A DNA stretch of 64,000 nucleotides from Escherichia phage vB_EcoM_KAW3E185, in sequence record MK373782.1, one strand, 5' to 3'. The number at the start of each line of letters is the position of its first letter. Within the stretch, counting starts at the first letter, position 1. Shown here piece by piece: positions 2,520-50,931 of the stretch. Under the pieces are notes generated by a model. That model saw only the letters and a program-made list of their open reading frames with translations, ran no database searches and was not told the DNA's origin. A program made the translations under genes and the position numbers.

Positions 2520-3620
2520 TTACGCTGTGAAGATTTTATCCCACATCGCAACAACTGCATCTCGGTTATACTTCTTCCATACTGCTTCAGCACGTTTAAC
2601 TCGAGCTTCGTATGTGTCAGTGAATTCTAATACAGCTTTTGTGTAAAGCGCAACTACTTCTTTCTTAGGAGTAGAGGAATCAATTTCTACACGCACAGTA
2701 TCTGGGTCGTATTCAAATGTCGCATGAGGATAATCCTTAAAAACTAACTGGATTACAGGGACACCTTTAGAGATGGCTTCAATAGAACTATTCTCTACCG
2801 TACCTGTGTCAGGACACGTATTAATAAGTGCTTTAGCTGTTTTAAGGCGTTCCATGATTTCACTGTGTGGAGCATCAATAATAACAGGATATTTAGCCGG
2901 TGGTGCCCATTTGCTTGGACAGTATCCTACACCATTTTCGCCTAGTGCTTTAATCGCTTCAAGAGCAACATCAGTACGACGCATTTTAGTGTCATAACGT
3001 TGTGCACTAATAATCAGATCAGTCGCCGGAAGAACTTCAGGTTTCTCATTCAAACAAATAACCGGATAATCTTCGGTTTCAAACAACGGATTTGCTCGCC
3101 AATAATCATAATCAATTTTGTCAGTCAGACCTGAAGTCATATAACAATATTTGCGTTCAAATTCACGGAAGGCTTTAGTAGGAGCATAACTCTTACCACC
3201 GTTCTTACGAATTTGAATAGTCTGGTCCCAAATTTGAACAATGCCACGAGATACTGGTTCAAATGGTGTTGCCATAAAATTCTTATGAACTTTAGAGAGA
3301 CCTGCGTCTTTAATTGCCTGAACGGTTAGTTTAGTCGGTTCCATAGTAACAACAAAATCGTATTCATGGATGCCGGCTAGTTCAACAATCTTACGAGCCA
3401 TAGTATAACTCATACCTAGACTGAATTTAGTCAGATGACCAACAGGATGATGATTAACCTTCCAATCACCAAATGTGTCATTATCAAAACCGATATAATC
3501 AATATCGGCACCGATGGACACAAGATATTTCAACACATTTAAATGTACTGCTTCAAGACCACCTTGTACACGTTCTGGGTTAAATGGGACTGCACGAGAT
3601 GGGATAAACATAACTTTCAT
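2520..3620 (-). CDS. putative GT-B fold (GT4-like) glycosyltransferase, 366 aa
   Basis: N-terminal MKVMFIPSRAVPF...GGLEAVHLNVLKYL and C-terminal ...TGTVENSSIEAISKGVPVI resemble GT4 donor-binding motifs; occupies the slot where T4 has gene 60/mobA. Confidence 0.5.
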   Translation of the reverse strand: MKVMFIPSRAVPFNPERVQGGLEAVHLNVLKYLVSIGADIDYIGFDNDTFGDWKVNHHPVGHLTKFSLGMSYTMARKIVELAGIHEYDFVVTMEPTKLTVQAIKDAGLSKVHKNFMATPFEPVSRGIVQIWDQTIQIRKNGGKSYAPTKAFREFERKYCYMTSGLTDKIDYDYWRANPLFETEDYPVICLNEKPEVLPATDLIISAQRYDTKMRRTDVALEAIKALGENGVGYCPSKWAPPAKYPVIIDAPHSEIMERLKTAKALINTCPDTGTVENSSIEAISKGVPVIQLVFKDYPHATFEYDPDTVRVEIDSSTPKKEVVALYTKAVLEFTDTYEARVKRAEAVWKKYNRDAVVAMWDKIFTA

Positions 3621-19904: not shown

Positions 19905-19932
19905 TTCAATTTCCTCTGTAGTTGATAGAAAG

Positions 19933-19962
19933 ATAGTAACACAGTATGTGGTGCTTGTAAAC
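19933..19962 (-). promoter_or_regulatory. early promoter (-35 GTTTAC, -10 TACTAT)
   Basis: Hexamers upstream of the lipoprotein ORF; coordinates approximate. Confidence 0.35.
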
Positions 19963-19964
19963 AG

Positions 19965-20177
19965 CTATTTTAAACTTTTTCGAAATTTGCGTTTTTCTTG
20001 ACGAATCTGTCGTTTAGTCGGACGTACAGCAAATTTAACGAAGCCCACTTTGCCGTGTGGAAACTTTTCAGATGCTTCGCAGTCCATCATTAGTTCCCAT
20101 CCTTCCAGAATAAGAGCTTTCCATTGTGTAGTTGATGCAAATTCGTATGTTGACGGTTTAAACACAGTTGAATACAT
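19965..20177 (-). CDS. small protein with basic RPTKRQIR tail (about 70 aa)
   Basis: Track ORF 19965-20216; start chosen at Met14 with GAGGA Shine-Dalgarno; tail motif shared with ORF 50276-50473. Confidence 0.45.
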   Translation of the reverse strand: MYSTVFKPSTYEFASTTQWKALILEGWELMMDCEASEKFPHGKVGFVKFAVRPTKRQIRQEKRKFRKSLK

Positions 20178-20178
20178 A

Positions 20179-20370
20179 TTATCCTCTGAAATCAGCTTCA
20201 AAAACTTTCTCGTCATTAATAAATGCTTTAACTAATGCATTGTTCACTTCAGCAAGTTGTACCGTAACCCACTCGATTTCTTCGCGATCACCTGATAACA
20301 TGATATCTTTAGTGAACATCTCACCGCTTTTAAACCAACCGATAAAAGTAACTTTAGTTAATTTGCTCAT
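20179..20370 (-). CDS. dmd: Dmd-like antitoxin (inhibitor of RnlA/LsoA RNase toxins)
   Basis: KVTFIGWFKSGEMFTKDI...AEVNNALVKAFINDEKV resembles T4 Dmd as I recall it; start chosen at Met8. Confidence 0.65.
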   Translation of the reverse strand: MSKLTKVTFIGWFKSGEMFTKDIMLSGDREEIEWVTVQLAEVNNALVKAFINDEKVFEADFRG

Positions 20371-20684
20371 ATTTCCTCGCAAAATGCCCATTCAGCGTGA
20401 TAAACTGTAGCGCCTTTAGTATCATTCATTTGAACTACATCTACCGGAGAAATTACTCGATAGAGACGTGGTTCACCTCCATAAGAGCGTGCTGCTCGTC
20501 CTGCATAAATCTTTGCTAAACCGATATCTTCAGTAAAGAATACACGATCCAAGTTTTTCTTACGTCCAGTTTCAGACAGAACTCCTGTTTCTTCAGGAGG
20601 ACAAAGCATGTTTTCGATGTTAGCTGAACTACTTGAACCGTGATAAAAAATCTTAAATTCTGCTTTACAATCGATGGTTTTCAT
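20367..20684 (-). CDS. hypothetical protein (105 aa)
   Basis: ORF on gene strand with upstream early promoter. Confidence 0.45.
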   Translation of the reverse strand: MKTIDCKAEFKIFYHGSSSSANIENMLCPPEETGVLSETGRKKNLDRVFFTEDIGLAKIYAGRAARSYGGEPRLYRVISPVDVVQMNDTKGATVYHAEWAFCEEI

Positions 20685-49813: not shown

Positions 49814-49848
49814 GATAAACCCTTACCTTAAATAGATAAGGGTATTTA

Positions 49849-50274
49849 TTAACTTAAACGTCTTTCTAAATATTCAATGTATTCTGCGGCTGCTTGCATC
49901 AGGTTACCTTCATAGCCGTCGTTATTTTCTTGTCCGGCTAATTTAGCTAATGCATAAGAAATTCGTTCACCTTCGAATTCGCCAAGTTTACTACCTAGCA
50001 CATCCGCAATATCAGCCGAATCAATTTCTTCGAGTTCATCTATTGAATGTGATTCCCAGAAGCACCAAAGAGAAGTATCACGGTCATAGATGCAAAGTTT
50101 CTCACCAGTGTTCAACATCACTTCAATAATGCCATGGTCGCCATAACCATCTTCGGTCGTAGTACCAATTACCTTGATGATTGTTCCTTTCTTTAATTCA
50201 GGAAACTTGACTTGTAGTTCTTCATCTTCTTTAACAATCTTGAACCATTTACCACGTGTGTCAGAAATATTCAT
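49849..50274 (-). CDS. hypothetical acidic protein (141 aa) at the pin position
   Basis: Positional only. Confidence 0.4.
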   Translation of the reverse strand: MNISDTRGKWFKIVKEDEELQVKFPELKKGTIIKVIGTTTEDGYGDHGIIEVMLNTGEKLCIYDRDTSLWCFWESHSIDELEEIDSADIADVLGSKLGEFEGERISYALAKLAGQENNDGYEGNLMQAAAEYIEYLERRLS

Positions 50275-50275
50275 A

Positions 50276-50473
50276 TCAATATCCTCTATAAAAGTTGCGA
50301 TGCGTGCGTTTCGCTTTGCGAAGCTGACGTTTAGTTGGTCGAACCGTAAATGGTCGTCCGGAGAAAAAATTTGGTTCAGTTTTAATCAACACATACCAAT
50401 CGTGTTCGCCACTTTTTAATAAACGGTATAACAATTTAACTTGCATAATAATCTCTTCCCATTTCCAAATCAA
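50276..50473 (-). CDS. small protein with basic RPTKRQLR tail (65 aa)
   Basis: Tail motif FTVRPTKRQLRKAKR shared with ORF 19965-20177. Confidence 0.45.
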   Translation of the reverse strand: MIWKWEEIIMQVKLLYRLLKSGEHDWYVLIKTEPNFFSGRPFTVRPTKRQLRKAKRTHRNFYRGY

Positions 50474-50574
50474 TCATATCGTTTACTGTAGGTTCATCAT
50501 AACACGTTTCTTCGTCGTTGTAAACTGTTTCGACGTCTGGCTCGACAGTTTCCCATCGAGCCGAATACCATGGC

Positions 50575-50931
50575 TTAACCCCGGAGTTTATTGAGCTCTT
50601 CATAATCAATCCAGGATTCTAGCCCTGACGGCAGGTCACATTCAATGTTCCACAGAAGCTCTTCAATGGCTTGCAGGCGATTATATTCTTCAACGGTAAT
50701 GGTAACCATTGGTGCAACCGGTTCTGCCTTTTTAACCATCATGTCGTTCATCAGGACGTAAAGGTCATCACGAACGACAGTGTCGTTCCAACCCCATGAT
50801 TTGGCTTCGTAAGCTAATGATGAAGGGAGCACATTTAAAACTTCAATAATAGTTGGAGCATCAGGACCAAGTTCATTGGCACAAACTTCGTATACATCTT
50901 GGAAATCTTTAAGATTTAATGAATATGTCAT
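50575..50931 (-). CDS. hypothetical protein (118 aa)
   Basis: ORF on gene strand; stop overlaps the nrdC start region. Confidence 0.45.
   Translation of the reverse strand: MTYSLNLKDFQDVYEVCANELGPDAPTIIEVLNVLPSSLAYEAKSWGWNDTVVRDDLYVLMNDMMVKKAEPVAPMVTITVEEYNRLQAIEELLWNIECDLPSGLESWIDYEELNKLRG

What the first reader, a model, noticed from the sequence alone, without database searches (positions are those of the whole stretch)
19965..20177. Paralogous small proteins sharing a basic RPTKRQ[IL]R tail (second copy at 50276-50473)
Two unlinked small ORFs end with nearly the same motif: FAVRPTKRQIRQEKRKFRKSLK and FTVRPTKRQLRKAKRTHRNFYRGY. The motif resembles a nucleic-acid-binding or nuclear-localisation-like basic tail; one copy is directly adjacent to dmd.
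Basis: seen in the sequence. Interest (0 to 1): 0.4.

Follow-up and report, generated by a model that had tools for sequence, protein, structure and literature searches.

The report
TifA anti-toxin and a shorter paralog
The two small proteins are real relatives: one is the known phage protein TifA, which binds RNA through exactly this basic motif to disarm the bacterial ToxN defence toxin, and the other is an untested, shorter family member next to the pin gene.

Summary
The window is an RB69-like T-even phage (Mosigvirus).

**Copy 1 (19965-20177, minus strand, 70 aa)** is gp61.4, renamed TifA. It is 2 residues different from RB69 TifA, a characterised RNA-binding inhibitor of the type III toxin ToxN. 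The flagged motif R52-P53-T54-K55-R56-Q57-I58-R59 is the Pro-Thr cap and basic face of TifA's C-terminal helix. Published P53A/T54A and K55A/R56A/R59A mutants lose RNA binding and ToxN inhibition.

**Copy 2 (50276-50446, minus strand, 56 aa from the ATG)** is probably an RNA-binding relative with a different partner.
- It passes the same Pfam model, DUF7279, at 6e-13.
- It keeps every mutated residue.
- It is under purifying selection, with dN/dS about 0.1.
- Its model is confident (pLDDT 91.6): three strands plus a C-terminal helix, with a shorter N-terminus and specificity loop.
- Its target is unknown.

The similarity is not compositional: 0 of 20,000 tail-only shuffles reached the observed score.

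Copy 2 occurs in 145 phage records, all Mosigvirus by name. tifA itself is cleanly missing from about half of them. RB69 also carries a third member, ORF087c, which this window lacks.

Verdict: copy 1 is already known; copy 2 is a new, uncharacterised member of a known family. Interest is modest.

The parts
19965..20177 (-). tifA (gene 61.4), 70 aa; ortholog of RB69 TifA, the RNA-binding inhibitor of ToxN
   Evidence: RB69 annotates this gene as 61.4. 61.4 was renamed tifA. The window protein differs from published TifA-RB69 at S16T and D45G. Pfam DUF7279 2.8e-19; phrog_2375 5e-29.
19980..20033 (-). Shared motif in TifA, F49-R66 (FAVRPTKRQIRQEKRKFR): Pro53-Thr54 helix cap plus basic helix face K55, R56, R59, K62, R63, R66
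   Evidence: Alignments. Published mutagenesis of P53/T54 and K55/R56/R59.
20179..20370 (-). dmd (61.5), antitoxin against RnlA/LsoA; immediately upstream of tifA in the same leftward unit
   Evidence: Pfam Dmd 1.3e-21; RB69 annotation.
50276..50446 (-). Copy 2: 56-aa TifA-family (DUF7279) paralog between 49.1 and pin; function untested
   Evidence: Pfam DUF7279 6.3e-13; phrog_3272 4e-24. Annotated as a 171-nt CDS in relatives. dN/dS about 0.1. AF2 pLDDT 91.6.
50297..50350 (-). Shared motif in copy 2, F33-R50 (FTVRPTKRQLRKAKRTHR): P37-T38 cap, then K39, R40, R43, K46, R47, R50
   Evidence: The stretch FTVRPTKRQLRKAK (F33-K46) is identical in all 10 Mosigvirus alleles examined; one allele has R47H and T48S is common. 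The helix is predicted to start right after T38.
49849..50274 (-). pin (Lon protease inhibitor), immediately downstream of copy 2; the copy 2 stop and the pin start sit in the sequence TGATATG
   Evidence: Pfam Inhibitor_I24 4.7e-49; sequence.
50436..50603 (-). 49.1-like ORF, immediately upstream; its last 11 nt (stop codon included) overlap the start of copy 2
50496..50524 (-). Early-promoter-like site (TTTACA, 17 nt spacer, TGtTATGAT) about 50 nt upstream of the copy 2 ATG, inside 49.1
   Evidence: Consensus scan only, 10/12 matches with an extended -10 TG. The hexamers are also present in RB69. This is not evidence of function.

Best explanation
The window carries two members of the TifA family (Pfam DUF7279).

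**Copy 1** is TifA itself, co-transcribed with dmd. Its published mechanism is as follows. A three-stranded beta-sheet and a variable loop contact ToxN near the toxI pocket. A C-terminal alpha-helix, capped by Pro-Thr and lined with Lys/Arg, binds RNA. Together they trap released ToxN on abundant cellular RNA, chiefly 16S rRNA, so that it cannot cut phage transcripts. The RPTKRQ[IL]R motif is that helix cap and RNA-binding face.

**Copy 2** is an old, selectively maintained paralog that keeps the cap and all the basic positions. Its N-terminus is 10 residues shorter, its loop is 6 residues shorter, and its sheet sequence is unrelated. I infer that it also binds RNA through the helix but tethers or occludes a different partner, most likely another defence RNase or toxin.

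**Shown versus inferred.** Shown: the identity of copy 1, family membership of both, selection on copy 2, and its predicted architecture. Inferred: RNA binding by copy 2. Speculative: its target.
For: **Identity of copy 1**
- RB69 synteny and annotation.
- The renaming of 61.4 to tifA and its proof as a ToxN inhibitor.
- RB69 TifA sequence.
- The mechanism and the mutants in this very motif.

**Family membership**
- The same Pfam model over its full length for both proteins.
- W27/W17, P-T, K, R, K and R are invariant or nearly invariant across 15-32 family members.
- The similarity is not compositional.

**Copy 2 is a real gene**
- dN/dS is 0.09-0.18 at dS 0.22-0.76 against 9 other alleles.
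- It is annotated in all relatives inspected.
- It is tightly packed between 49.1 and pin.

**Architecture**
- The AF2 model has pLDDT 91.6, with strands 2-9, 15-24 and 27-33 and a helix 39-55 that starts after P37-T38.
- This matches the published description of TifA, apart from the roughly 20-residue loop.

**A different partner is plausible**
- The paper shows that the loop around residue 41 sets ToxN specificity and is not conserved across the family.
- Six divergent homologs inhibited none of the seven toxins tested.

**Not merely a back-up of tifA**
- tifA is absent from about half of the 144 Mosigvirus records, while copy 2 is found in 145.
Against: - No experiment exists for copy 2 or its PHROG (3272).
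- By sequence, only the helix is clearly homologous. The N-terminal half is marginal.
- The AF2 alignment contained TifA relatives, so the shared architecture is not fully independent evidence.
- My own model of copy 1 was poor (pLDDT 50.6, 3-sequence alignment). The structural comparison therefore rests on the published description.
- The RB69 reference genome carries a frameshift in copy 2. If real, the gene is dispensable in at least one laboratory phage.
- TifA bound ssDNA and dsDNA in vitro about as well as RNA, so a DNA-related role for copy 2 is not excluded.
Confidence: 0.8

Rival explanations
1. Copy 2 is a second, redundant or back-up inhibitor of the same ToxN-type toxins. It would give the phage a higher dose or an escape-proof variant.
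For: - It belongs to the same family and keeps the RNA-binding residues.
- TifA dose matters: T4 escapes toxIN by amplifying tifA.
- Under one alignment the loop keeps an F-x-S-G turn, with Ser at the position equivalent to residue 41, and F41S strengthens T4 TifA.
- Phages that lack tifA still keep copy 2.
Against: - The sheet and loop that contact ToxN are shortened and not recognisably similar in sequence.
- All six divergent family members tested failed on every ToxN/TenpN tested.
- The position-41 equivalence depends on the alignment (compare).
Confidence: 0.15
2. Copy 2 is a general small RNA-binding or ribosome-associated early protein that serves phage gene expression or host shut-off. 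It would have no defence-system partner.
For: - The basic helix is conserved.
- TifA enriches 16S rRNA.
- Copy 2 is near-universal in Mosigvirus, unlike typical accessory counter-defence genes.
Against: - It lies in the hypervariable 49-nrdC accessory region, where neighbours come and go: pin is absent in AV116 and ESh27, and ORF087c is present or absent.
- It was found in no genus other than Mosigvirus at E <= 1e-3.
Confidence: 0.2
3. The resemblance is chance or compositional (two Lys/Arg-rich tails), or copy 2 is not a real gene.
For: Both tails are very basic, and the N-terminal halves show no significant pairwise similarity (13,177 of 20,000 shuffles score as well).
Against: - 0 of 20,000 tail-only shuffles reach the observed score.
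- Both proteins pass a curated Pfam threshold.
- The spacing P-T-K-R-Q-x-R-x-x-K-R-x-x-R is gap-free.
- dN/dS is about 0.1.
- The model is confident.
Confidence: 0.01

Closest known systems
TifA (T4 gp61.4 / RB69 gp61.4), ToxN inhibitory factor A; Srikant et al. eLife 2022 (PMC9391042), Guegler et al. NAR 2023 (PMC10853763)
   Same: **Copy 1.** It is the ortholog. It has the same position after dmd, is 70 aa, is 2 residues different from TifA-RB69, keeps H41, and keeps P53/T54/K55/R56/R59.

**Copy 2.** It matches the same Pfam family, has the same PT cap and basic helix positions, has the same conserved Trp in the sheet, and has the same predicted strand-strand-strand-helix order.
   Different: Copy 2:
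- is 14 residues shorter, with 10 missing at the N-terminus and 6 from the specificity loop in the family alignments;
- lies 30 kb away, beside pin rather than dmd;
- ends in a distinct ...HRNFYRGY tail;
- falls in a different PHROG (3272 against 2375);
- has never been tested.
RB69ORF087c-type proteins (phrog_3272) between gene 49 and pin in many T-even phages
   Same: This is the closest relative of copy 2. The two align end to end at 34% identity, E 2e-10. They have a similar length and the same ...HR[ND]FY..Y ending, belong to the same PHROG, and also flank pin.
   Different: - It sits on the other side of pin.
- It is absent from this window; only 35 nt separate 49 and pin.
- It is more widespread: 356 records including Tequatrovirus and Dhakavirus.
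- It is also uncharacterised.
vB_EcoM_005-type and JS98-type TifA homologs (Dhakavirus)
   Same: This is another case of two DUF7279 genes in one genome. Both lie in the 41-61 interval of one contig (L008). The 73-aa type resembles copy 2 in having a short N-terminus.
   Different: - Both copies are in the dmd region rather than beside pin.
- Both were tested as homologs from different phages, and neither inhibited any ToxN or TenpN tested.
Dmd (T4 61.5), protein antitoxin against RnlA/LsoA
   Same: It is a small early phage protein that directly neutralises a host RNase toxin, and it is co-operonic with tifA.
   Different: It is an unrelated family (Pfam PF17587). It is not known to need RNA binding; it binds the toxin directly (my own background knowledge, not tested here).

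Membership tests
TifA family / Pfam PF23945 (DUF7279) | Score above the Pfam gathering threshold (24.5 bits) over most of the 53-position model | tested here: met
   Copy 1 scores 69.2 bits over profile positions 2-52. Copy 2 scores 48.9 bits over positions 2-53.
TifA family / Pfam PF23945 (DUF7279) | Conserved Pro-Thr motif capping the C-terminal helix, followed at once by a cluster of basic residues (K55, R56, R59 in TifA numbering) | tested here: met
   Copy 1 has P53 T54 K55 R56 R59. Copy 2 has P37 T38 K39 R40 R43, plus K46, R47 and R50. The feature is defined.
TifA family / Pfam PF23945 (DUF7279) | [quoted passage not shown] | tested here: met
   Copy 2: AF2 pLDDT 91.6, strands E2-9, E15-24 and E27-33, helix H39-55. 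For copy 1 my shallow model was uninformative, so I rely on the published model of TifA-RB69. The AF2 alignment included family members, so this test is not fully independent.
TifA proper (orthologs of T4 61.4 that inhibit ToxN) | Gene immediately downstream of dmd in the 41-61 interval | tested here: met
   This holds for copy 1: the dmd stop is at 20179 and the tifA ATG at 20177. It does not hold for copy 2, which lies between 49.1 and pin.
TifA proper (orthologs of T4 61.4 that inhibit ToxN) | Loop of about 20 residues carrying residue 41 (H in RB69, F in T4), which sets ToxN affinity | tested here: not met
   This verdict is for copy 2. Its loop is 6 residues shorter and is predicted as a tight hairpin. 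Copy 1 meets the feature: H41 is present (sequence; for its meaning).
TifA proper (orthologs of T4 61.4 that inhibit ToxN) | Neutralises ToxN toxicity and co-precipitates with ToxN in an RNA-dependent way | not testable with these tools
   Published for RB69 TifA, which differs from copy 1 by S16T and D45G. There are no data for copy 2.
dsRNA-binding domain (dsRBD) | Alpha-beta-beta-beta-alpha fold, with specific structural similarity to solved dsRBDs | tested here: not met
- Foldseek against the PDB gives no hit with E < 0.7.
- The N-terminal helix of the dsRBD fold is absent.

The most novel reading that the evidence does not exclude
T-even phages carry a small multigene family of TifA-like 'RNA-tether' antitoxins. 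The types seen are the dmd-adjacent TifA, copy 2 upstream of pin, the ORF087c type downstream of pin, and the primase-adjacent 005 type.

All share one RNA-binding helix but have different sheet and loop modules, and each would trap a different host defence RNase or toxin on cellular RNA. On this reading copy 2, the member found in every copy-2-bearing Mosigvirus record including those that lack tifA, inhibits a defence system not yet linked to any phage inhibitor.
Probability: 0.3. Interest if true: 0.55.

Novelty: new member of a known kind. Interest (0 to 1): 0.3.

Why it matters
TifA is one of the few phage counter-defence proteins with an unusual, worked-out mechanism: it sequesters a toxin on RNA. 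The published work treats TifA homologs as one gene per phage and found that most divergent homologs inhibit none of the toxins tested.

This window shows something different. Single genomes carry two or three family members at separate loci, all with the RNA-binding helix strictly conserved and the partner-facing part different. tifA itself is dispensable in about half of the Mosigvirus records, while the pin-adjacent paralog is kept.

That gives a concrete, cheap set of candidates for finding new toxin or defence targets. It also offers a natural system for asking how specificity is swapped on a constant RNA-binding scaffold. It is an increment on a known family, not a new kind of system.

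Tried and rejected
- **Word-indexed protein search with copy 1 alone** found only 2 proteins. It became useful only when repeated with a family alignment.
- **Exhaustive profile search with a 3-sequence profile** gave just 14 hits, one of them a spurious repeat protein, P0005.
- **First structure job** used a 3-sequence alignment for copy 1 and was wasted (pLDDT 50.6). As a result I have no model of my own for copy 1 and no direct superposition of the two copies.
- **PDB sequence search** found no relative.
- **Foldseek against the PDB** gave nothing below E 0.7.
- **BFVD** returned only uncharacterised small proteins of T4-like phages: PTK, Merlin and S16.
- **IMG/VR scan with copy 2** gave only 5 loci.
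- **Literature searches** for DUF7279 found nothing. Text searches of the two TifA papers found no mention of paralogs or second copies.
- **Additional family members in the window**: none found.
- **Recent DNA duplication or gene conversion as the source of the motif**: rejected, because half of the identical residues use different codons.
- **Promoter and terminator scans** are consensus matches only, and the counts are near shuffle expectation around copy 2.

Full report
**What the window is.** The two regions match RB69-like T-even phages (genus Mosigvirus) at 99.6-99.9% identity, for example vB_EcoM_G53 and vB_Eco_NicPhage. Around the first copy the gene order on the minus strand is 41, ORF041c, ORF040c, dmd, 61.4, imm.1, imm, sp. 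Around the second it is nrdC, a 118-aa ORF, 49.1, copy 2, pin, 49, nrdD.

**Observation check.**
- Copy 1 is exactly 19965-20177 (minus strand, 70 aa) and starts 1 nt after the dmd stop.
- Copy 2 is best read as 50276-50446 (minus strand, 56 aa). It starts from the ATG that every annotated ortholog uses, not from the TTG at 50473.
- The shared segment is FAVRPTKRQIRQEKRKFR against FTVRPTKRQLRKAKRTHR: 12/18 identical, ungapped, BLASTP E 2e-6.
Shuffling only the basic tail of copy 2 gave 0 of 20,000 scores at or above the observed 62 (maximum 44). Shuffling the whole protein gave 0 of 20,000 (maximum 55).
- The motif occurs nowhere else in the six frames of the window. A family HMM finds only these two ORFs.
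- At the DNA level only 6 of the 12 identical residues share a codon. The motif is therefore conserved by selection on the protein, not by recent copying.

**What copy 1 is.** RB69 annotates the gene as 61.4. Gene 61.4 was renamed tifA after T4 was shown to escape the type III toxin-antitoxin system toxIN by amplifying the dmd-tifA locus. The protein alone neutralises ToxN and co-precipitates with it (PMC9391042). RB69 TifA is the stronger inhibitor.

- Residue 41 in the loop tunes ToxN inhibition.
- RB69 TifA binds RNA with KD of 0.36-2.3 uM.
- The P53A/T54A and K55A/R56A/R59A variants lose both RNA co-purification and ToxN neutralisation.
- ToxN is trapped with 16S rRNA in a high-molecular-weight complex.

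The window protein differs from the published RB69 sequence at only two positions, S16T and D45G, and keeps H41. The flagged RPTKRQIR is residues 52-59. It is precisely the Pro-Thr cap and the three basic residues that were mutated.

**What copy 2 is.**
- Both proteins pass the same Pfam model, PF23945 (DUF7279), over nearly its whole length, at 2.8e-19 and 6.3e-13. They fall in different PHROGs, 2375 and 3272, with cross-hits.
- In alignments of 15 and 32 family members the conserved columns are the initiator Met, one Trp in the sheet (W27 in TifA, W17 in copy 2), P-T, and the basic positions K55, R56, R59, K62 and R66. Copy 2 has all of them.
- Copy 2 is a real gene. Against nine other Mosigvirus alleles, dN/dS is 0.09-0.18 at dS 0.22-0.76. 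The stretch FTVRPTKRQLRKAK is invariant.
- With a 32-sequence alignment, AlphaFold2 gives a confident model: pLDDT 91.6, strands 2-9, 15-24 and 27-33, and a helix 39-55 starting directly after P37-T38. This is the published TifA architecture, without the long loop.
- Relative to TifA, copy 2 lacks about 10 residues at the N-terminus and 6 in the loop.

By sequence alone, only the helix is clearly homologous. The first 34 residues add about 1.4 bits against a family HMM built without the copy 2 subfamily, and 13 of 500 shuffles do as well. Homology of the sheet therefore rests on the Pfam alignment span, the conserved Trp, and the predicted architecture.

**Fold comparisons.**
- No solved structure is related by sequence or by Foldseek.
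- In the viral predicted-structure library, the only match with E <= 0.001 is an 86%-identical ortholog of copy 2 from phage PTK. The next, weaker matches are small uncharacterised proteins of T4-like phages Merlin and S16.

**Family context, found by following the evidence.**
1. **RB69ORF087c.** The closest relative of copy 2 is not TifA but RB69ORF087c, a 59-aa gene on the other side of pin.
   - It matches DUF7279 at 8.5e-16.
   - It aligns end to end with copy 2 at E 2e-10.
   - It is absent from this window but occurs in 356 phage records, including Tequatrovirus.
2. **Frameshift in RB69.** In the RB69 reference genome, copy 2 carries a +1 frameshift in an A7 run. It is annotated only as a 38-aa remnant, RB69ORF089c.
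3. **Distribution.** Copy 2 was found in 145 records, all Mosigvirus by name. RB69-type tifA is present in only 68. The other 75 or so have a clean loss of tifA. In LF82-3 the end of dmd is fused to the last codons of tifA at an ATTTC microhomology. The sampled tifA-negative phages keep copy 2.
4. **Dhakavirus.** Dhakavirus-like contigs carry two members in the 41-61 interval: the JS98 type next to dmd and the vB_EcoM_005 type. Both were tested in the NAR paper as homologs from different phages, and neither inhibited any toxin tested.

Text searches of the two TifA papers found no mention of paralogs or of several copies within one genome.

**Mechanism.**
- For copy 1 the mechanism is the published one.
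- For copy 2 I infer RNA binding through the conserved capped basic helix, with confidence about 0.7.
- I also infer a partner other than ToxN(Ec), with confidence about 0.5. The partner-facing sheet and loop are shortened and unrelated in sequence. The loop is the known specificity determinant. Divergent homologs fail on ToxN.
- That the partner is a defence toxin is a reasonable guess (about 0.3-0.4). It rests on the family precedent and on the gene's place in the variable 49-nrdC accessory region, where pin and ORF087c come and go.
- Expression is presumably early and leftward together with 49.1 and pin. The reading frames overlap or abut, and an early-promoter-like site lies 50 nt upstream. 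That site is a consensus match only.

**Verdict.** Copy 1 is already known. Copy 2 is an uncharacterised new member of a known family that Pfam and PHROGs already group with TifA. The finding is useful as a lead for counter-defence screening but is not a new kind of system. Interest 0.3.

Noticed in passing
window 19965-20177; comparison locus L016 (PV660447.1 91185-92275): tifA is a presence/absence polymorphism within Mosigvirus. Of 144 records matching window 19905-20400, only 68 contain tifA; the other 75 or so lack it. In LF82-3 the end of dmd (…GCTGATTTTCGATAA) is fused to the last codons of tifA at an ATTTC/ATTTCG microhomology. The sampled tifA-negative phages keep copy 2.
   Followed up: partly
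L003 (AY303349.1 RB69) 3376-3548, minus strand: The RB69 reference genome has a +1 frameshift in an A7 run inside copy 2. Only a 38-aa C-terminal remnant, RB69ORF089c, is annotated. Removing one A restores the full 56-aa protein. Either it is a sequencing error from 2003 or RB69 really lacks this paralog.
   Followed up: partly
L003 2772-2951 (RB69ORF087c); window 49814-49848 is the corresponding empty site: RB69 has a third DUF7279/TifA-family gene of 59 aa between gene 49 and pin (Pfam 8.5e-16). This window lacks it. Homologs occur in 356 phage records, including Tequatrovirus, where they are labelled phrog_3272.
   Followed up: partly
L008 1426-1665 and 2453-2674: A Dhakavirus-like contig carries two TifA-family genes in the 41-61 interval: a JS98-type next to dmd and a vB_EcoM_005-type next to primase. 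The literature tested these two types as if they came from separate phages.
   Followed up: no
window 20367-20684, minus strand: This is a 105-aa ORF, the RB69ORF040c homolog, whose stop overlaps the dmd start (ATGA). It is conserved upstream of dmd in Dhakavirus too (L008 760-1089). One record (HX01) labels a gene under this stretch 'ADP-ribosyl transferase', apparently this ORF, but it has no Pfam hit.
   Followed up: no
L011 (AV116) and L012 (ESh27), locus positions 1201-1884: Some Mosigviruses lack pin altogether, so that copy 2 is followed directly by gene 49. AV116 also has a homing endonuclease where nrdD is expected.
   Followed up: no
window 50496-50524, minus strand: A T4-early-promoter-like site (TTTACA, 17 nt spacer, TGtTATGAT; 10/12 matches) lies inside the 49.1 ORF, about 50 nt upstream of the copy 2 start. 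The same hexamers are present in RB69.
   Followed up: no
L015 (OQ721909.1) 392-601: In a Tequatrovirus, the nrdC-pin interval holds a 69-aa gene annotated 'antitoxin from a toxin-antitoxin system' (phrog_3402). This hints that the 49-nrdC region, like the 41-61 region, collects counter-defence genes.
   Followed up: no
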